Origin: Candidatus Sungbacteria bacterium RIFCSPHIGHO2_01_FULL_50_25
GTDB taxonomy: Bacteria; Patescibacteriota; Minisyncoccia; Sungbacterales; HO2-52-23
NCBI GenBank assembly: GCA_001822215.1
Contig: MHQD01000032.1
Span: 1-34,067 of the forward strand
Length of the DNA: 34,067 nt
Reading direction: 5' to 3'
Within the stretch, counting starts at the first letter, position 1. Every line of letters begins with the position of its first letter. Shown one piece after another: positions 1 to 15,739 of this stretch. Made by a program: the position numbers and the translations under genes. The notes below the pieces were generated by a model. It had not been told where the DNA came from. It searched no databases and was given only the letters and a program-made list of their open reading frames with translations.

Positions 1-1692
1 GTCTGAGTTTGCGGCATTAAGCTCAAATGTTTTTCCAAATCCTCCTCCTGAGAGGGTGACTGTGAGAACTCCAGCATTGTTTGCAAGTCCTGTGCCAAGG
101 AGGTTTGTGAAGTGCTCGGAGTTGATCCTGATCGCGCCCACGTTCTGGGTGCCTGTGGTGGTGGCTTGGGTGGATGTGGAGTATTTGGCAAATATTCCTT
201 CGAATGTGCTTGATGCGGATGTGGTCAGGAGTCCTACGGTTGAGGTGGGAGAAAGCGAGATCTGGCCCAAAGAGTTTGCGGCGTTGAGTTCAAATGTTTT
301 TCCGAATGTGGCGCCTGACTGGGTCACGCATCCTGACCCTGTGGTGGAAACCACTCCCTGGTTTGAGATCTGGAGGCAGTTGGTGCCTGTGTTTCCGAGG
401 TTCGAGATAGTGAGGAGGGAGGTAGAAGCAAGGGTGGAGATTGAGATATATGAGGTTGTTGCCTCTGTTGAAGTCGAACGAGAAGACGAAAGCCCAAGAA
501 TTGTCGAAGACGCATAATTTATAATGATTCCTACGGTTGAAGTCGGTGTGATAGAGCCACCCGTGGCAGTAAATTGCCAATTCGAAACGCCGGAAACATC
601 AGCACCGCACAAAAACTTACCGGATGTAGAATTGTATAAAACCGTTTGCGACTCAGCGGAACAATCGCCAAAATCGGATTGGAAAAAACCGTTCGAAACT
701 GACAGACGCGACGTACTCGCGTTTACTAGAACCGCAAAGTATGACGTGGTCGCTTGTGTTGAAGTCGAAAGAAGAGAAGTGAGATAAGAAACAGTCGAAG
801 AAGCACTCACAATCATTCCGATTGTCGAAGTCGGAGTGATATATGCATTTGATGCAATCGTAGTCCAAATATATTCTCCCGTGCCCTCTCCAACCGCATC
901 GGCACCGCAAGTAAATTTTCCGGTTGAAGAATTATATAAAACGTTTTGCGATTCCGTCGAACAGTCCCCCAGCCCTCCTTGGAAAAATCCGTTTGAGATA
1001 GTGAGTTCAGACGAAGATGCAGAACCGCTCCCGGAAATGACAAAAAGATTTGTCGCAGTCGAATTCTGAATTTGGAAAAGATTTGCGCTCTGGCCCAAGG
1101 CACCGCGAACTGAAACAGGAATAACCGCAGACGAAGTTGCCTCGATAGTAAGAAGCGACCTCCCGATTGCGGAAGTCGTACCAAGACGCGATTGGGTGCT
1201 GGTCGAAAGAAGCGTATCGGCGACAAGCGCAAACGCAGTTGAGTTAATCCGGTGTCTGGGGCTAAGCGTTTCCCATGACGCGGTTGAACTGTTATACACC
1301 TCCACTTGCAGATAGACTTCATCTCGCGAAGAGAAATCATAATCAAGCACGTCGGAACATTCGTTCGAATCCCCAACGTTCGCGTTAAACACGCCCTCCT
1401 TCACCACAAGCGAATGCGTGCACGGATCAGCAGATCCAGACGGCCATACGCGCGAACCACCGCTTGCGGCGGTGTAGAGTGAAAAACGGAAGTTGTAATT
1501 TGTTCCTAACCCTCCAAGAAGATTTCCGCTCGAATCAGCAAGTCGACCCTGGTAGCTTAAGATACGCGGAACCCCGGGAGCCGCAATCGACGTTATAGCA
1601 AATAGCGGCAAGAGAAGAACAAATAACCCCGCAGGAATTAGGAGAAATTTCTTCGAAAAAAAGCGAATTGTAGAGAGGATATTTCGCTTCAC
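1..1692 (-). CDS. large secreted/cell-surface repeat protein, N-terminal part (C-terminus lies beyond window start)
   Basis: I checked triplet by triplet and the minus-strand frame has no stop from 1 to 1707. It is absent from the supplied track because its stop is off-window. GTG at 1692-1690 is preceded by an in-frame TAA (1710-1708). The N-terminus VKRNILSTIRFFSKKFLLIPAGLFVLLLPLFAITSIAAPG looks like a signal peptide or TM anchor. It is followed by PRILSYQGRLADSSGNLL...FRFSLYTAASGGSRVWP and S/T/G-rich ~100-aa repeats carrying SNGFFQ..GDCS.ESQ.VLYNS.SGKF.CGAD. Track ORFs 56..517, 524..787, 836..1069 (+) and 290..580, 653..910, 813..1376 (-) are off-frame shadows of this gene. Confidence 0.75.
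   Translation of the reverse strand, partial: MKRNILSTIRFFSKKFLLIPAGLFVLLLPLFAITSIAAPGVPRILSYQGRLADSSGNLLGGLGTNYNFRFSLYTAASGGSRVWPSGSADPCTHSLVVKEGVFNANVGDSNECSDVLDYDFSSRDEVYLQVEVYNSSTASWETLSPRHRINSTAFALVADTLLSTSTQSRLGTTSAIGRSLLTIEATSSAVIPVSVRGALGQSANLFQIQNSTATNLFVISGSGSASSSELTISNGFFQGGLGDCSTESQNVLYNSSTGKFTCGADAVGEGTGEYIWTTIASNAYITPTSTIGMIVSASSTVSYLTSLLSTSTQATTSYFAVLVNASTSRLSVSNGFFQSDFGDCSAESQTVLYNSTSGKFLCGADVSGVSNWQFTATGGSITPTSTVGIIINYASSTILGLSSSRSTSTEATTSYISISTLASTSLLTISNLGNTGTNCLQISNQGVVSTTGSGCVTQSGATFGKTFELNAANSLGQISLSPTSTVGLLTTSASSTFEGIFAKYSTSTQATTTGTQNVGAIRINSEHFTNLLGTGLANNAGVLTVTLSGGGFGKTFELNAANSD
590..1010. repeat. imperfect tandem repeat units (~300 bp = 100 aa) inside the surface-protein gene
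   Basis: 604-700 (ccgcacaaaaacttaccggatgtagaattgtataaaaccgtttgcgactcagcggaaca...) realigns with 904-1000 (ccgcaagtaaattttccggttgaagaattatataaaacgttttgcgattccgtcgaaca...) at a 300-bp offset. A weaker third unit recurs near 21-42 and 289-310 (caaatgtttttcc). Confidence 0.7.
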
Positions 1693-2043: not shown

Positions 2044-2154
2044 ATCAGTTAGAACGCATATGCTCCCCGTGCCGGCATACTTGCTTTTCAGGCGAGCACA
2101 CCCTTTCGCTTTCATCGACGAAAGCCAGGGCTATATTTAAACTTTCTAACCGGA
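2044..2154. repeat. possible degenerate member of the GTTAGAA...TTCTAAC inverted-repeat element family (copy E)
   Basis: Termini are atCAGTTAGAACgc (2044-2057) and acTTTCTAACCGGa (2142-2154). The 111-bp length is similar to copies A-C. There is an internal hairpin CTTTCG...CGAAAG. No flanking direct repeat is present and the termini are diverged. Confidence 0.3.
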
Positions 2155-2310
2155 GAGGGCGAGATTCAAATTCGCGATGCCGGTAAACCCCGTTAGAACG
2201 GGCGCTTTGCGAATACGCTCGCGGGAACATTCCACTCCCGCGGGCGATCGGGGGACGACCGCCGACTGGAGTCGGCGGCGCTCTAACGGGGTAAAGGTAT
2301 ACCTGCTTTT
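2151..2310 (-). pseudogene. 3' fragment of a class-II (Ser-like) tRNA, split in its variable arm by element A
   Basis: Plus strand 2151-2187 (cggagagggcgagattcaaattcgcgatgccggtaaa) joined to 2296-2310 (ggtatacctgc...) aligns with the intact tRNA-Ser at 2363-2410 (cggaggcgagaggattcgaacctctgataccggtaaaggcatactcgc). The acceptor 3' strand, T-arm (gcgag/ttcgc versus agagg/cctct) and variable arm are all recognisable. I could not find a matching 5' acceptor, D-arm or anticodon arm. Confidence 0.55.
2188..2291. mobile_element. MITE-like inverted-repeat element, copy A (104 bp)
   Basis: Termini are CCCCGTTAGAAC (2188-2199) and GCTCTAACGGGG (2280-2291), an 11/12 inverted match. It is flanked by direct TAAA (2184-2187 and 2292-2295). 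Internal hairpins are CGCGGGA-9nt-TCCCGCG (2220-2242) and CCGCCGAC-TGGA-GTCGGCGG (2259-2278). Removing the element plus one TAAA restores colinearity with the neighbouring tRNA-Ser. Confidence 0.6.
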
Positions 2311-3520: not shown

Positions 3521-3534
3521 GAAATATGTGTAAA

Positions 3535-3637
3535 TTCCGTTAGAACAGGCGCTTCGCGATCGGCTGATGGGAGCAGTATACTCCCGTAAGCTTATTCTAT
3601 CTCCACCGCCGACTCTGTCGGCGGCGTTCTAACGGGG
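3535..3637. mobile_element. MITE-like inverted-repeat element, copy B (103 bp)
   Basis: Termini are TTCCGTTAGAAC (3535-3546) and GTTCTAACGGGG (3626-3637). It is flanked by direct TAAA (3531-3534 and 3638-3641). It is colinear with copy A: a shared GGCGCTTYGCGA block, a GGGAG-7nt-CTCCC hairpin (3569-3585) and CCGCCGA-CTCTG-TCGGCGG (3606-3624). Confidence 0.6.
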
Positions 3638-3730
3638 TAAAAAGTTTTCCCCAAAATTATATCAGAAATTTCCTTCCCCCGCAATCCCCCGCTGTGGTAC
3701 CATTGCTATACTATAGCAGTCTCACACAAA

Positions 3731-4649: not shown

Positions 4650-6065
4650 ATGATTCGGCTATACAATACGCTCACGCGAAAAATCGAAGATTTTAAACCC
4701 ATCCGGAAAGGACGGGTCGGTTTATACACCTGCGGGCCAACGGTCTATAATTTCGCTCACATAGGAAACCTGCGCACATATATATTTGAGGATATCCTTC
4801 GCCGGACACTCGAATACTCCGGATATAATGTTACGCACGTCATGAACATCACGGATGTCGGGCATTTGACGTCAGATGCGGACGCGGGCGAGGACAAGCT
4901 TGAAAAAGGCGCAAAACGCGAAGGGAAAACCGTCTGGGATATTGCGCGCTTCTATACGCGCGCGTTTCTCAAAGATATCCGCGCGCTTAATATCAAACGG
5001 GCGCAAAACATCGTCCCCGCGACATCCGCAATACGAGAACAGATTGCCGTCATAAAGAAACTTTTCGCCGGCGGCTTTGCATACGAAACACCCGAGGCCG
5101 TTTATTTTGACGTGTCAAAATTTAGGAATTATACAAAACTTTCCCGCCAGCGCCTTGAGGAAAAAAAAGCGGGCGCACGCGCCGAAGTCATCGAAGACCC
5201 GGGGAAAAAACATCCGCAGGATTTCGCGCTCTGGTTCAAGCGCGTCGGAAAGTTCAAAAACCACGTGATGCATTGGAATTCGCCCTGGGGTGACGGATTT
5301 CCGGGCTGGCACATTGAGTGCTCCGCAATCTCAACTTCGCGGCTCGGCCAGCCTTTTGACATCCACACGGGCGGAGTGGATCATATTGCGGTGCACCACA
5401 CGAACGAAATTGCGCAGTCAGAAGGCGCATTCAAAAAACCTCTTGCGCGATTCTGGATGCACGGCGAATTTCTCCTTGTCGCGGATTCAAAAATGGCAAA
5501 ATCAGCGGGAACGTTTCTTACGCTTCAAGAACTTGAAAAAAAAGGATTTAATCCGCTTGCATTCCGCTATCTTGTCCTCACCTCGCATTATCGCTCAAAA
5601 TTGAATTTTACATGGGAATCGCTTCGGGCGGCAGAACACTCCCTTGAGCGGGTCCGTAGTTTTATCAAAACACTCCTCTCGGAAAGAAAAAAACCAAAAC
5701 ACCCTGTCTCTCTCGAAAAATATAGAAGCCAGTTTGACGATGCGCTCAAAAGCGATCTCCAAACCCCGCAGGCGCTTTCAGTACTTTGGAAAATCATCAG
5801 CGATTACAACACGCAATCGGAGTCGTTCGACGCAAAAAAGATTCTCGCGCTTCTCTACGATTTTGATCAAGTCCTTGGGCTTCATTTTACCGCAATCAAA
5901 AAAGACGCTATCCCGGAAACAATACGCGATATGGCAATGAAACGCGAGGTAGCGCGCAGGAATAAGGATTGGGATAAAGCCGACAAATTCCGCGCCAAAA
6001 TTGAAACAGCGGGATTTGTTATATTCGATACCCCAGACGGTTCAAAACTCCGAAAGAAACAATAA
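4650..6065 (+). CDS. cysS: cysteine--tRNA ligase
   Basis: HIGH motif (AHIGNLRT), KMSKS motif (KMAKSAG) and a CysRS-type N-terminus MIRLYNTLTRKIEDFKP. The track ORF starts at 4611 and overlaps corA. The ATG at 4650 gives the conserved N-terminus. Confidence 0.93.
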   Translation: MIRLYNTLTRKIEDFKPIRKGRVGLYTCGPTVYNFAHIGNLRTYIFEDILRRTLEYSGYNVTHVMNITDVGHLTSDADAGEDKLEKGAKREGKTVWDIARFYTRAFLKDIRALNIKRAQNIVPATSAIREQIAVIKKLFAGGFAYETPEAVYFDVSKFRNYTKLSRQRLEEKKAGARAEVIEDPGKKHPQDFALWFKRVGKFKNHVMHWNSPWGDGFPGWHIECSAISTSRLGQPFDIHTGGVDHIAVHHTNEIAQSEGAFKKPLARFWMHGEFLLVADSKMAKSAGTFLTLQELEKKGFNPLAFRYLVLTSHYRSKLNFTWESLRAAEHSLERVRSFIKTLLSERKKPKHPVSLEKYRSQFDDALKSDLQTPQALSVLWKIISDYNTQSESFDAKKILALLYDFDQVLGLHFTAIKKDAIPETIRDMAMKREVARRNKDWDKADKFRAKIETAGFVIFDTPDGSKLRKKQ

Positions 6066-12631: not shown

Positions 12632-13801
12632 ATGTCACTCAAAATAGGTATCGTAGGCCTCCCGAACGTGGGTAAATCCACCCTGTTTCAGGCGCTCACG
12701 CGCCAATCGGTTGAAATCGCAAACTATCCGTTTGCGACAATCGACCCGAATATAGGCGTTGTACCCGTTCCCGACGAACGGCTCCTAAAGCTCGCCCAAA
12801 TGTCAAAATCCAGAAAAATCGTTCCGGCGGCAATTGAATTCGTTGATATTGCGGGCCTTGTCAAGGGCGCCTCAGTTGGCGCGGGACTCGGAAACAAATT
12901 TCTCACAAATATCCGGGAAGTCGACGCAATCGCCGAAGTAGTGCGCGTATTCGAGGATAACAATATCATTCACGTCTCCGGAAAGACAGATCCTATATCT
13001 GATATTGAAACAATTTCCTACGAGCTTGCGATGAAAGATCTGGAGACCGTTTTGAAGCGCCTCGAATCTGTGGAGCGCGACGTGCGCGCAGGAAAAAAAG
13101 AAGCTATCGCGGAAAAAGCCGTTCTCGAAGTGCTCCGAAGCGCTTTTGACACCGCAACACCTGCACGAAGCATCCGCCCACACGGAAAAAACGAAGCCGA
13201 GGAATTTGATGCTGTCGCGCACGCGCTCTCGCTCCTCACCGCAAAGCCGATTCTCTTTGTGCTGAATGCTTCGGAAAGTATGGTTCAAGAAAGTTGGAAA
13301 CCCGAAGGCGCTCTTTTGAAAGCGCTTTGCGGTGCCGAGTACGCCGTCATAAGCGCAAAAATCGAATCCGAGCTCGCCGAACTTCCAGACGAAGAACGAA
13401 AAGAATTTCTTTCGTCACTCGGACTTCGAGAAAGCGGACTTGCCCCGTTAGAGATCCGTTCCGCCGAAGGCGGAACGGCAGATACCAGAGGCATCTTATC
13501 TCTAACGGGGCTAGATCAACTGATACGCTTGAGCTACGAAACGCTCGCCCTCATGACTTTTTTTACCACAGGAGAGGACGAATCACGCGCGTGGACCATT
13601 CCAAAGGGATCAACCGCCCCGCGGGCGGGCCGCGCAATACACTCGGATTTTGAAGAAAAATTTATTCGGGCTGATATCATAGAATGGAATAAGCTCCTCA
13701 AGATCGGATCATGGACGCGCGCCCGCGAACTTGGAACACTCCGCACCGAAGGGAAAGAATATATTGTAAAAGACGGGGACGTAGTTGAATTTAAAATATA
13801 G
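12632..13801 (+). CDS. ychF: ribosome-binding ATPase YchF, carrying a 24-aa insertion
   Basis: G1 motif GLPNVGKST, the YchF helical insert, and a TGS-like C-terminus (RAWTIPKGSTAPRAGRAIHSDFEEKFIRA...EGKEYIVKDGDVVEFKI). Confidence 0.93.
   Translation: MSLKIGIVGLPNVGKSTLFQALTRQSVEIANYPFATIDPNIGVVPVPDERLLKLAQMSKSRKIVPAAIEFVDIAGLVKGASVGAGLGNKFLTNIREVDAIAEVVRVFEDNNIIHVSGKTDPISDIETISYELAMKDLETVLKRLESVERDVRAGKKEAIAEKAVLEVLRSAFDTATPARSIRPHGKNEAEEFDAVAHALSLLTAKPILFVLNASESMVQESWKPEGALLKALCGAEYAVISAKIESELAELPDEERKEFLSSLGLRESGLAPLEIRSAEGGTADTRGILSLTGLDQLIRLSYETLALMTFFTTGEDESRAWTIPKGSTAPRAGRAIHSDFEEKFIRADIIEWNKLLKIGSWTRARELGTLRTEGKEYIVKDGDVVEFKI
13443..13510. mobile_element. MITE-like inverted-repeat element, copy D (68 bp), in-frame inside ychF
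   Basis: Perfect 13-bp termini CCCCGTTAGAGAT (13443-13455) and ATCTCTAACGGGG (13498-13510). An internal perfect 10-bp hairpin is CCGTTCCGCC-GAA-GGCGGAACGG (13456-13478). It is flanked by CTTG (13439-13442) and CTAG (13511-13514). Confidence 0.65.
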
Positions 13802-14489: not shown

Positions 14490-14927
14490 ATGGAAAAAGA
14501 GCCGAAAAAATACGAAATCACGTATCTCCTCGCGCCTTCCATCGCAGAAGATGCGCTTGCAAATACCGTTCAAGCAATTCACACGGCCATCGAGGAAGAA
14601 AAGGGTTTTATTTCCCATTCCGAATCACCGCGGAAACGGCATCTCGCCTATCCGGTTGGAAAAGAAACAAGCGCGTATTTCGGCTGGACAAGATGCACGC
14701 TTCTCCCGAATGCGATTTCGGCTGTTGAAAAGAAAATAAAGGCAAATCCGTCCGTCATCCGGCACATTATCGTCGAAGATACGATACCCGCGATGGCGCC
14801 GCCCCGCATGCCCCGAATGATGCCTCCGACAATGCCTGCGGCACTCCCGAAACGCGAAGAAGAAGCCGATGAGCGCCTTGATCTTGAGGGACTCGATAAA
14901 AAATTGGAGGAAATACTTGGGAAATAA
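14490..14927 (+). CDS. rpsF: 30S ribosomal protein S6 (bS6) with C-terminal extension
   Basis: KYEITYLLAPSI...RKRHLAYPVGKE..AYF is an S6-like core. About 45 extra C-terminal residues are rich in P/M and then acidic residues. Confidence 0.88.
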   Translation: MEKEPKKYEITYLLAPSIAEDALANTVQAIHTAIEEEKGFISHSESPRKRHLAYPVGKETSAYFGWTRCTLLPNAISAVEKKIKANPSVIRHIIVEDTIPAMAPPRMPRMMPPTMPAALPKREEEADERLDLEGLDKKLEEILGK

Positions 14928-14937
14928 CGAACATGAA

Positions 14938-15050
14938 TCCCGTTAGAAGCTACGGCCGCTTTGCACAAAACAAATTACAAAAATTTTATTATTTTAATTA
15001 ATAACTGGCAGTATCAAAGTCAAGTAGACCGCGACCTGCTTCTAACGGGA
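14938..15050. mobile_element. MITE-like inverted-repeat element, copy C (113 bp) between rpsF and ssb
   Basis: Perfect 13-bp termini TCCCGTTAGAAGC (14938-14950) and GCTTCTAACGGGA (15038-15050). It has an AT-rich core. It is flanked by direct repeats TGAA (14934-14937 and 15051-15054). Read more broadly, ATGAAT(C) occurs on both sides. Confidence 0.65.
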
Positions 15051-15505
15051 TGAATCTCAACAAAGCATTCATTATGGGGAATCTCACGCGCGACCCGGAG
15101 CTCCGACAGACTCCTTCGGGACAAGCCGTCTGCTCATTCGGAGTTGCAACAAACCGCTTTTATACCGATCAATCAGGGCAAAAACAAAAACAGGCAGAAT
15201 TCCATAACGTAGTCGCGTGGGGAAAACAGGCGGAGATTGTAAACCAATATCTGAAAAAAGGTAGCTTGATCTTTGTCGAGGGCCGCATTCAGACGCGAAA
15301 TTGGCAGGATCCGCAAGGCACGAAGCACTACCGGACCGAGGTGATTGCAGAACGCGTTCAGCTGGGCCCGCGGCTTGGCGGCGGGATCCCGGCGCAGCAG
15401 CAAGAACCAGCGCCGCGGTCAGAGGCGACAAAAGAGGACGAGACCCCGATTATCGAGCTTCCGACTGAAGACGACGGAATTGATGTGAAGGATATACCTT
15501 TTTAA
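15050..15505 (+). CDS. ssb: single-stranded DNA-binding protein
   Basis: OB-fold N-terminus MNLNKAFIMGNLTRDPELRQTPSG, a Gly/Pro/Gln-rich linker, and the acidic C-terminal tip DGIDVKDIPF. Confidence 0.92.
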   Translation: MNLNKAFIMGNLTRDPELRQTPSGQAVCSFGVATNRFYTDQSGQKQKQAEFHNVVAWGKQAEIVNQYLKKGSLIFVEGRIQTRNWQDPQGTKHYRTEVIAERVQLGPRLGGGIPAQQQEPAPRSEATKEDETPIIELPTEDDGIDVKDIPF

Positions 15506-15526
15506 CGATGTATAATTTCTAACGGG

Positions 15527-15739
15527 ATGAAAGAGCAAATAAAAAAACAGTGCTATTTTTGCACGACAAACCGCCCGATCGACTATAAGGACGCTGATCT
15601 CTTAAAGCGCTTTATGTCAGCGGGAGCAAAAATCTATTCGCGCAGGAAATCTTTCCTCTGCGCATACCACCAGCGGGAATTCTCGCAAGCCGTAAAACGA
15701 GCGCGCTATCTAGCGCTCGTACCATACACGTCGAGGTAG
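15527..15739 (+). CDS. rpsR: 30S ribosomal protein S18 (bS18)
   Basis: 70 aa. CYFC...IDYKDADLLKRFMS...KIYSRRKS..C...QREFSQAVKRARYLALVPY is S18-like. It sits in the conserved rpsF-ssb-rpsR arrangement. Confidence 0.9.
   Translation: MKEQIKKQCYFCTTNRPIDYKDADLLKRFMSAGAKIYSRRKSFLCAYHQREFSQAVKRARYLALVPYTSR

What the first reader, a model, noticed from the sequence alone, without database searches (positions are those of the whole stretch)
14933..15054. Element copy C sits between rpsF and ssb and has duplicated the ssb start-codon region
The 113-bp element has perfect termini TCCCGTTAGAAGC / GCTTCTAACGGGA and is bracketed by the same string on both sides. On the left is acATGAAT|CCCG (14933-14938) and on the right is CGGG|ATGAATctc (15050-15056). 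The right copy is the real ssb start (MNLNKAF...). The left copy sits 5 nt after the rpsF stop and opens a 22-codon decoy ORF (MNPVRSYGRFAQNKLQKFYYFN*, 14933-15001) that terminates inside the element. The simplest reading is a target-site duplication (TGAA, or ATGAAT depending on where the terminus is drawn). It would have been created by insertion into an originally tightly coupled rpsF-ssb junction. The AT-rich core now separates two ribosome/replication genes and could provide a new promoter, a uORF or an RNA structure affecting ssb and rpsR expression.
Basis: seen in the sequence. Interest (0 to 1): 0.7.

Follow-up and report, generated by a model that had tools for sequence, protein, structure and literature searches.

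The report
Hairpin transposon sitting on ssb start codon
The 113-base element between rpsF and ssb is a small non-coding mobile DNA hairpin that duplicated four bases (TGAA) of the ssb start region, and it belongs to a seemingly undescribed family, common in ultra-small (CPR) bacteria, whose longer members sit almost always exactly on start codons and rebuild them.

Summary
It is a 113-nt element (14938-15050) with perfect 13-nt inverted termini. It is flanked by TGAA/TGAA, which reads as ATGAAT on both sides. A 22-codon decoy ORF opens at the left ATG, and the real ssb start is at the right ATG.

The window, from a Candidatus Sungbacteria genome, holds three more full copies and one solo end. 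One full copy is a 68-nt in-frame insertion in ychF that orthologues lack.

A pattern scan found the same termini (YCCCGTTAGA...TCTAACGGGR) in at least 120 stretches from species-representative genomes. Most are CPR/Patescibacteria of many classes. In 139 copies the 4-bp TNNA flank is duplicated exactly in 56%.

T...A-ended copies such as this one lie on start codons in 46 of 56 cases, and the element's last base plus TG rebuilds the start. Four other metagenome contigs carry same-family elements with different interiors on the ssb start (two of them are near-duplicates).

Best reading: a MITE-like non-autonomous transposon. Its transposase was not found. How ssb is still translated is inferred, not shown: a relay through the decoy ORF that melts the hairpin. 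No Rfam family or paper matched.

The parts
14938..15050 (.). Element copy C, 113 nt: non-coding hairpin transposon of the T...A-ended class with an AT-rich core
   Evidence: It shares subterminal motifs (CCCGTTAGARGC.. at the left..GACCGCGACCTGCTTCTAACGGG at the right) with L023, L114, L116, L131 and L133.
14938..14950 (+). Left terminal inverted repeat, TCCCGTTAGAAGC
   Evidence: 0 mismatches.
15038..15050 (+). Right terminal inverted repeat, GCTTCTAACGGGA. Its last base, A15050, is the A of the ssb ATG.
14934..14937 (.). Left copy of the target-site duplication, TGAA
   Evidence: The family-wide 4-bp TNNA duplication is shown.
15051..15054 (.). Right copy of the target-site duplication, TGAA
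14933..15001 (+). 22-codon decoy ORF that opens at the original start codon, reads through the left arm of the hairpin and stops in the AT-rich core
   Evidence: Its start lies 5 nt after the rpsF stop.
14490..14927 (+). rpsF (ribosomal protein S6)
15050..15505 (+). ssb. Its N-terminus MNLNKA is conserved in relatives, so the right ATG is the true start.
15517..15527 (+). Solo right end TTCTAACGGGA abutting the rpsR start (ATG 15527-15529, then the TGAA context). Probably the remnant of a second start-codon copy.
   Evidence: No left end is present, and the region has no fold.
15508..15522 (+). 4-codon mini-ORF (ATG TAT AAT TTC TAA). It ends at the TAA inside the solo end, 4 nt before the rpsR ATG.
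   Evidence: Read.
15527..15739 (+). rpsR (ribosomal protein S18)
13443..13510 (.). Copy D: a 68-nt C...G-ended element inside ychF, in frame and free of stops. Flanks are CTTG (13439-13442) and CTAG (13511-13514). It adds 24 residues between the two Pfam domains.
2188..2291 (.). Copy A, 104 nt, C...G-ended, flanked by TAAA (2184-2187 and 2292-2295)
3535..3637 (.). Copy B, 103 nt, related to A. Its left tip is TTCC instead of CCCC. Flanked by TAAA (3531-3534 and 3638-3641).

Best explanation
Copy C is a miniature, non-coding, cut-and-paste-type transposable element (MITE-like). Its terminal inverted repeats are YCCCGTTAGA...TCTAACGGGR. It inserted into the tetranucleotide TGAA of the ssb start (A|TGAA|T) and duplicated it.

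Shown:
- The termini, the 4-bp TNNA duplication and the multi-copy, multi-genome distribution.
- Presence/absence at an orthologous site (ychF).
- Recurrent elements with different interiors on the ssb start in other lineages.
- The element's last base (A, or G in some copies) plus the duplicated TG rebuilds a start codon. The gene therefore keeps an intact ORF, while the original start codon stays on the left, next to the old initiation context.

Inferred:
- Mobilisation in trans by an unidentified transposase. By tip sequence and 4-bp duplication, an IS1380/piggyBac-like enzyme is the best guess.
- How ssb stays expressed. Ribosomes finishing rpsF re-start at the left ATG 5 nt downstream and translate the 22-codon decoy ORF. 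This unwinds the left arm of the hairpin and frees the right arm, which holds the first two bases of the ssb AUG. ssb is then initiated or re-initiated.
- Retention mostly where the element is harmless: on start codons, in spacers, or as short in-frame loops in proteins.
For: - Perfect 13-nt termini and flanking TGAA.
- Four full copies and one solo end in 34 kb. The 8-mer occurs 9 times against 0.55 expected.
- All copies fold as single long hairpins, z from -5 to -10.
- ychF copy: the window has 72 extra nt (68 + 4) and 24 extra residues compared with L007 and L013, with clean empty sites there.
- In 139 copies the tip pair is C:G (75) or T:A (56). The 4-bp flank is identical in 56%, and the middle two bases in 63% against about 6% by chance.
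- Duplication spectrum: TGAA 29, TAAA 18, TGGA 9, TTGA 8, TGAG 6.
- 57 of 139 copies have an ORF of at least 60 codons starting at the element's last base. Only 3.6% of all TNNA sites are start-like.
- T...A-ended copies are on start codons in 46 of 56 cases, C...G-ended in 10 of 75.
- Same-family elements with different interiors sit on the ssb start in L160, L165/L166 and L170.
- Intragenic copies are only the short, in-frame, stop-free ones. No frame-breaking copy restores a gene when removed.
- For the relay: the left ATG is 5 nt after the rpsF stop. Relatives show rpsF-ssb coupling geometry, with an ATGA overlap in L146 and TAAATG in L158. In 15 of 52 start-codon copies the left ORF runs through the whole element and stops in the right terminus (TAA, 4 nt before the start) or at an ATGA overlap, against 4.8 expected after interior shuffling.
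Against: - No transposase gene bounded by these termini was found in the window or in the roughly 1 Mb of fetched loci.
- No relative shows the exact empty rpsF-ssb site.
- All six population contigs carrying this SSB have the identical element, so no polymorphism was seen.
- 44% of copies lack an exact duplication.
- In copy C itself the decoy ORF stops 48 nt before the ssb ATG, so the relay needs re-initiation at a distance or independent initiation without a visible Shine-Dalgarno sequence.
- Nothing about transcription or translation was measured.
- The long class has a 22:3 orientation bias relative to the gene. Neutral insertion does not explain this.
Confidence: 0.8

Rival explanations
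1. The element is mobile in origin, but the T...A-ended class is kept because it works as a translation-control cassette. A stable hairpin occludes the rebuilt start codon, and the duplicated upstream start drives a short ORF. The stop of that ORF is supplied by the terminus itself (TAA 4 nt before the start, or an ATGA overlap). Expression of the downstream gene would then depend on upstream translation or on hairpin stability. This overlaps with the best explanation.
For: - 82% of T...A-ended copies are on start codons.
- The asymmetric long class has a 22:3 orientation bias relative to the gene.
- Run-through ORFs ending in the right terminus are about threefold more frequent than expected, 15 against 4.8.
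- The frame class (length+4) mod 3 = 1 is the commonest: 25, against 14 and 13.
- The solo end before rpsR keeps exactly the ATG..TAA-CGGG-ATG arrangement.
Against: - The enrichments are modest; the frame bias is about p = 0.08 by my own chi-square.
- Most copies, including C, have internal stops.
- The same family also sits in spacers and inside proteins.
- Purifying selection against harmful insertions alone could give the start-codon bias.
- There are no expression data.
Confidence: 0.3
2. It is a conserved cis-regulatory RNA of the rpsF-ssb-rpsR operon, for example an autoregulatory protein-binding hairpin or an RNase III processing site, and not mobile DNA.
For: It forms a strong hairpin in a ribosomal-protein operon. 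Hairpin-forming sequences occupy the same spacers in relatives.
Against: - The closest relatives (SSB 88-96% identical) lack it and carry unrelated sequences.
- The same element type flanks unrelated genes and sits inside ychF.
- It has a flanking duplication.
- No Rfam family matches, even at E up to 10.
Confidence: 0.04
3. It is a REP/BIME-like or IS200/IS605-type single-strand hairpin element, moved by a tyrosine (HUH) transposase such as a RAYT.
For: It is a dispersed palindromic repeat. The termini contain GTTAG, reminiscent of the REP GTAG tetranucleotide (my own knowledge). Relatives carry GTAG-containing palindromes in the same spacers.
Against: Those elements make no target duplication and have no true terminal inverted repeats. 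Here a 4-bp duplication is exact in 56% of 139 copies, and the termini are perfect inverted repeats.
Confidence: 0.04
4. It is an intervening sequence removed from the RNA (intron-like), so the duplicated start region is restored in the transcript.
For: Removing the element plus one duplicate would restore the ancestral sequence exactly. CPR bacteria are known for insertions in rRNA genes (my own knowledge).
Against: All intragenic copies are in frame and free of stops, as expected if they are translated. None of the candidates for a frame-breaking copy whose removal restores a gene held up on inspection. The interior has no conserved catalytic core.
Confidence: 0.03

Closest known systems
Bacterial MITEs (e.g. 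Correia/CREE of Neisseria, RUP of Streptococcus, ERIC/IRU of enterobacteria)
   Same: Small size (60-140 nt), no coding capacity, terminal inverted repeats, a target-site duplication, many dispersed copies, a hairpin fold, and co-transcription with neighbouring genes is likely.
   Different: The termini (YCCCGTTAGA) and the 4-bp TNNA duplication differ from those families; Correia and ERIC duplicate TA (my own knowledge). This family spans many phyla. One class sits almost exclusively on start codons and rebuilds them.
Rickettsia palindromic elements (RPE)
   Same: Palindromic repeats are tolerated as in-frame insertions in essential protein genes. The ychF copy adds 24 residues, and 11 further in-frame cases occur elsewhere.
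   Different: There is no sequence relation. RPEs are not known for clear inverted termini plus a duplication, or for start-codon placement (my own knowledge).
piggyBac superfamily / prokaryotic IS1380 family
   Same: A 4-bp duplication with T at the first and A at the last position (piggyBac TTAA, with rare variants TAAA and TCAA). Termini begin with CCC.., and IS1380 transposases serve as the prokaryotic outgroup (PMC10813416). IS1380 ends in 'CC' with a 4-5 bp duplication (my recollection of ISfinder).
   Different: No transposase was found here. The duplication is TNNA, not TTAA. There is one extra tip base (Y) before CCC. The resemblance is a lead only.
REP/BIME and REPIN elements
   Same: Short palindromic repeats dispersed in intergenic spacers.
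   Different: REPs make no target duplication and depend on a RAYT. These elements have true terminal inverted repeats plus a 4-bp duplication.

Membership tests
MITE (miniature inverted-repeat transposable element) | Small size and no coding capacity | tested here: met
   Copies in the window are 68-113 nt and those elsewhere 53-142 nt. The only ORF in copy C is the incidental 22-codon read-in from the flank.
MITE (miniature inverted-repeat transposable element) | Terminal inverted repeats | tested here: met
   Copy C has a perfect 13-nt repeat. In 139 copies the termini are conserved as YCCCGTTAGA/TCTAACGGGR.
MITE (miniature inverted-repeat transposable element) | Target-site duplication of fixed length | tested here: met
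   The 4-bp TNNA flank is exact in 56%, and the middle dinucleotide is identical in 63% against about 6% by chance. Copy C has TGAA/TGAA.
MITE (miniature inverted-repeat transposable element) | Multiple dispersed copies, with presence/absence at orthologous sites | tested here: met
   4.5 copies in the window. The ychF copy is absent from L007 and L013. The ssb-start copy is absent from the closest relatives.
MITE (miniature inverted-repeat transposable element) | A related autonomous element encoding the transposase | tested here: inconclusive
   No pair of ends bracketing a transposase-size ORF was found in the window or in 232 loci. Whole genomes could not be searched.
IS1380 / piggyBac-derived element | DDE/DDD transposase of that superfamily bounded by the same termini | not testable with these tools
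IS1380 / piggyBac-derived element | 4-bp (or 4-5 bp) duplication and termini starting CC/CCC | tested here: inconclusive
   The duplication is 4 bp and T..A-framed, but it is TNNA and not TTAA. The tip is Y+CCC. Comparison data come from PMC10813416.
Rickettsia palindromic element | Sequence membership in the RPE families | not tested
   No RPE sequences were compared. Only the behaviour is shared (in-frame insertion in a protein gene).
Correia / ERIC-type MITEs | TA duplication and their characteristic termini | tested here: not met
   The duplication is 4 bp TNNA and the termini are CCCGTTAGA. The features of those families are from my own knowledge.
REP/BIME | No target duplication; an imperfect palindrome of about 35 nt with a 5' GTAG | tested here: not met
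   A duplication is present and the elements are 53-142 nt.
Any Rfam RNA family | Score at or above the family's gathering threshold | tested here: not met
   Only three tRNAs reach the gathering threshold in the window. At E up to 10, only sub-threshold hairpin-like microRNA precursor models match.

The most novel reading that the evidence does not exclude
A cross-phylum family of hairpin transposons has a T...A-ended class specialised for start codons. It inserts into the TG.. tetranucleotide of a start codon, and its last base rebuilds ATG or GTG. Its inverted termini carry stop codons placed for termination-reinitiation (TAA 4 nt before the rebuilt start, or an ATGA overlap). It can therefore be wedged between a gene's initiation signals and its ORF without killing the gene, even in essential genes such as ssb. 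It may act as a mobile, possibly reversible, translational throttle in streamlined CPR genomes. It may be moved by a piggyBac/IS1380-like enzyme capable of seamless excision.
Probability: 0.3. Interest if true: 0.75.

Novelty: new variant of a known kind. Interest (0 to 1): 0.6.

Why it matters
CPR/Patescibacteria have tiny, gene-dense genomes, and little is known about their mobile DNA or how they start translation.

- **Undescribed repeat family.** Here a single family, recognisable by 10-nt termini, is spread over many CPR classes. It also occurs in Omnitrophota, Planctomycetota and Desulfobacterota-type genomes.
- **Sits on essential genes.** Its longer class lies on the first codon of genes, including essential ones (ssb, and probably once rpsR). 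Its shorter class is tolerated as extra loops inside proteins such as YchF.
- **Practical for annotation.** These copies create decoy start codons, false short ORFs, N-terminal mis-calls and apparent protein insertions.
- **Conceptual interest.** The family offers a natural test of how ribosomes reach a start codon buried at the foot of a stable hairpin, through coupling, leaderless starts or re-initiation. It also hints at an unrecognised transposase with start-codon preference.

Tried and rejected
- **Empty site.** I looked in six same-species contigs (all identical), in three closer relatives via SSB homologues and in 80 metagenome loci. No exact empty site was found.
- **Transposase partner.** I checked unpaired ends, long-range end pairs with matching duplication, and ORFs next to ends. 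I also checked a 2.7-kb segment between inverted copies in L050, which encodes a secreted protein and not a transposase. Nothing was found.
- **RNA splicing.** Candidates where removal gave long open frames on both sides proved to be chance open frames beside true gene starts.
- **Internal promoter.** None was found on the + strand. Two weak sites on the - strand are not above the shuffle expectation.
- **Rfam.** No family matched at the gathering threshold or at a permissive threshold.
- **Plasmid and phage collections.** Only low-complexity AT-rich matches to the core.
- **Literature.** Searches by sequence, MITE+CPR, palindromic elements and start-codon MITEs found nothing relevant.
- **Possible degenerate fifth copy at 2036-2162.** It does not fold (z = +0.3) and was dropped.
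- **Palindrome array in viral contigs L224/L231.** The TTAGAAC-N4-GTTCTAA array looks like a separate protein-binding site array that merely satisfied my pattern.

Full report
**Observation**

The region reads exactly as described.
- rpsF (14490-14927; Pfam Ribosomal_S6) ends with TAA at 14925-14927.
- After CGAAC comes ATGAAT at 14933-14938.
- The element occupies 14938-15050 (113 nt). TCCCGTTAGAAGC at its left end has a perfect reverse complement at its right end.
- ATGAAT recurs at 15050-15055 and opens ssb (151 aa; Pfam SSB 2e-42).
- The N-terminus MNLNKA is conserved in all close relatives, so the right ATG is the true start.
- The left ATG opens the 22-codon ORF 14933-15001.
- As RNA the element folds into one long hairpin: -34.3 kcal/mol, z = -5.1, with no shuffle as stable.

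**Copies in the window**

The 8-mer CCGTTAGA occurs nine times against 0.55 expected. These hits form four paired elements and one solo end.
- A: 2188-2291.
- B: 3535-3637.
- D: 13443-13510.
- C: 14938-15050.
- A solo right end, TTCTAACGGGA, at 15517-15527, directly abutting the rpsR ATG.

A and B are mutually related. C shares only the termini and short subterminal stretches with them. All four fold as single hairpins, with z from -5 to -10. Each is flanked by a 4-bp direct repeat once one extra tip base pair is assigned to the element: TAAA (A), TAAA (B), TGAA (C), and CTTG/CTAG (D).

**Proof of insertion**

Copy D lies inside ychF (12632-13801), in frame and without stops. The orthologues in L007 (the Sungbacteria GWC2_49_10 genome whose SSB, P0003, is 91% identical) and L013 (CP066690) lack exactly 24 residues. 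At the DNA level they lack 72 nt, which is 68 nt of element plus 4 nt of duplication. The empty sites read GGGCTTACA and GGACTGGAT, where the window has GGACTTG[element]CTAGAT. The insert falls between the two Pfam domains of YchF.

**The family beyond the window**

SSB homologues place the window in Candidatus Sungbacteria, a CPR lineage. I scanned the species-representative genome collection for CCCGTTAGA, 41-101 nt, then TCTAACGGG.
- Most hits are CPR/Patescibacteria of many classes: Saccharibacteria-labelled MAGs, Paceibacterota, Nomura-, Kaiser-, Kerfeld-, Uhr-, Wolfe-, Jorgensen-, Moran-, Doudna- and Zambryskibacteria, among others.
- A minority are from Omnitrophota, Planctomycetota, Deltaproteobacteria-type genomes and a few others.
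- Seventeen stretches occur in IMG/VR viral contigs.

In 139 copies:
- The base pair outside CCCG...CGGG is C:G (75) or T:A (56).
- The next four bases are a direct repeat, exact in 56%, of the form TNNA.
- The two middle bases are identical in 63%, against about 6% by chance.

The duplication spectrum is dominated by TGAA/TTCA (29), TAAA/TTTA (18), TGGA (9), TTGA (8) and TGAG (6).

**Start codons**

- In 57 of 139 copies an ORF of at least 60 codons begins exactly at the element's last base, A or G, followed by the TG of the duplicate. Only 3.6% of all TNNA sites in the same loci are start-like by that criterion.
- The association is class-specific. T...A-ended copies (median 113 nt, the class of copy C) are on start codons in 46 of 56 cases. 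C...G-ended copies (median 80 nt, the class of A, B and D) are there in 10 of 75.
- The left flank usually keeps the original start codon: ATG in 40 and GTG in 4 of 55.
- A TATAAT-like box ends exactly 6 nt upstream of the left ATG in 8 of 55 copies (10 by the looser TANNNT test), the one offset that stands out. This suggests some of these genes were leaderless.
- The asymmetric long class points the same end (..CGCGRYCTRYYTCTAACGGG) toward the gene in 22 of 25 classifiable cases.
- Copies inside genes are only short, in-frame and stop-free: 12 cases. Apparent frame-breaking cases dissolved on inspection. So there is no support for removal at the RNA level.

**The rpsF-ssb junction in relatives**

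- Six contigs from different samples that encode the identical SSB all carry the identical element.
- Closer relatives (SSB 85-96% identical) have spacers of 60-190 nt without it. Several of these spacers hold unrelated palindromic repeats. In L011 one 96-nt repeat fills both the rpsF-ssb and the ssb-rpsR spacer.
- The predicted ancestral string was not found.
- Same-family elements with different interiors sit on the ssb start codon in L160 (...aaaagcATGAAT|CCCG..CGGG|ATGAATCTC), in L165/L166 and in L170. In L165/L166 the sequence is gagTAAaATGAAC|..|GTGAAC, so the left ATG lies 1 nt after the rpsF stop and the rebuilt start is GTG.
- Element-free tight junctions exist in L146 (ATGA overlap), L158 (TAAATG) and L145 (9 nt).

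Removing the element and one TGAA from the window leaves a 5-nt spacer, which fits this range. The 'insertion into a coupled junction' reading is therefore well supported indirectly. The ssb start (ATGAAY) is a recurrent landing site.

**How it probably works**

The anatomy shown here is that of a non-autonomous cut-and-paste transposon. The enzyme is unknown. No transposase bounded by these ends was found in the held sequence.

The tip sequence (Y)CCC and the T..A-framed 4-bp duplication resemble piggyBac. piggyBac has a TTAA duplication, tips CCCTT/CCCTC and rare TAAA/TCAA duplications, and IS1380 transposases are its prokaryotic relatives (PMC10813416). That is a lead, not a test.

For expression, geometry dictates that the left start always reads ATG-NNY-CCC-GTT-AGA, which is open through the left terminus. 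A ribosome starting there must unwind the terminal stem whose other strand holds the first bases of the real start codon.

At the right terminus the three frames behave differently:
- one continues into the gene;
- one stops at the TAA 4 nt before the start;
- one stops at a TGA overlapping the start, when the duplicate begins with TGA.

Run-through ORFs that use these stops occur in 15 of 52 copies, against 4.8 expected after interior shuffling.

In copy C the decoy ORF starts 5 nt after the rpsF stop and ends 48 nt before the ssb ATG. I infer a relay from rpsF to the decoy ORF, to hairpin opening, to ssb initiation. This relay is inference. No + strand promoter was seen in the element, and no Shine-Dalgarno-like sequence precedes the ssb ATG.

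The solo end before rpsR preserves a miniature of the same design: ATG TAT AAT TTC TAA-CGGG-ATG.

**Comparison and novelty**

The element meets the structural definition of a MITE, except for an identified autonomous partner. It behaves like Rickettsia palindromic elements when inside genes. It is not REP-like, because it has a duplication. It is not Correia/ERIC-like, because the duplication and termini differ.

No Rfam family, no plasmid or phage record and no paper in the searchable library describes it.

I rate it a new variant of a known kind. It is an ordinary class of element with an unusual, statistically strong habit of sitting on start codons and regenerating them across many phyla.

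Noticed in passing
window 13443-13510 (ychF 12632-13801): A 68-nt member of the same family is inserted in frame in the GTPase gene ychF. It adds 24 residues (APLEIRSAEGGTADTRGILSLTGL) between the G domain and the C-terminal domain. Orthologues lack exactly these 72 nt.
   Followed up: yes
window 15508-15531: A solo right terminus (TTCTAACGGGA) abuts the rpsR start. It is preceded by a 4-codon mini-ORF whose TAA stop lies inside the terminus, 4 nt before the rpsR ATG. A TATAAT hexamer (15511-15516) lies 10 nt upstream of that ATG. It looks like a deleted second start-codon copy.
   Followed up: partly
window 2079-2105 and 2501-2531, around tRNA-Ser 2362-2449: Two partial duplicates of tRNA-Ser sequence flank the intact gene. 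A weak 40-nt hairpin with degenerate family termini (ACCCGTTAAAAGC..GCTTCTAACCC, 2473-2507) lies next to it. Copies A and B bracket this tRNA and an M48 peptidase gene.
   Followed up: partly
L011 2405-2500 and 2948-3043; also the spacers in L007, L136, L139, L141, L144, L148 and L013: In related Sungbacteria the rpsF-ssb and ssb-rpsR spacers are filled by other, unrelated palindromic repeat families. Examples are ACTACGAATGTACGAA...TTCGTAACTTCGTAGT and GTAGAAGCAAA...TTTGCTTCTAC. In L011 the same 96-nt repeat occupies both spacers. These two junctions are hot spots for several repeat families.
   Followed up: partly
L130 4972-5059: In one MAG the family termini CCCGTTAGA / TCTAACGGG directly bracket a complete tRNA-Thr(CGT) gene (ARAGORN 4981-5052). 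This could be a tRNA carried between the ends, or a terminus-derived processing stem.
   Followed up: partly
L224 6240-6980 (and the near-identical L231): A GC-rich viral contig has a 0.8-kb non-coding stretch with about ten palindromes of the type TTAGAAC-N4-GTTCTAA. It looks like an array of binding sites for a DNA-binding protein (origin, partition or operator). It is probably unrelated to the transposon, apart from the shared half-site.
   Followed up: no
L050 2046-2369 and 4832-5155: A family copy is embedded in a roughly 320-nt inverted repeat that flanks a 686-aa secreted-protein gene. Related copies occur in L040 and L092.
   Followed up: partly
window 1-1400: Several direct repeats spaced about 270-290 nt and 590 nt apart (families D2, D3, D7, D15) suggest a repetitive coding region at the window's left end.
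   Followed up: no
L032, L035, L049, L108, L123, L127 and others (left flanks of start-codon copies): TATAAT-like boxes end exactly 6 nt upstream of the original (left) ATG in 8 of 55 start-codon copies (10 by the looser TANNNT test). This suggests that some CPR genes hit by the element are leaderless and that the element sits at +2 to +5 of the transcript.
   Followed up: partly
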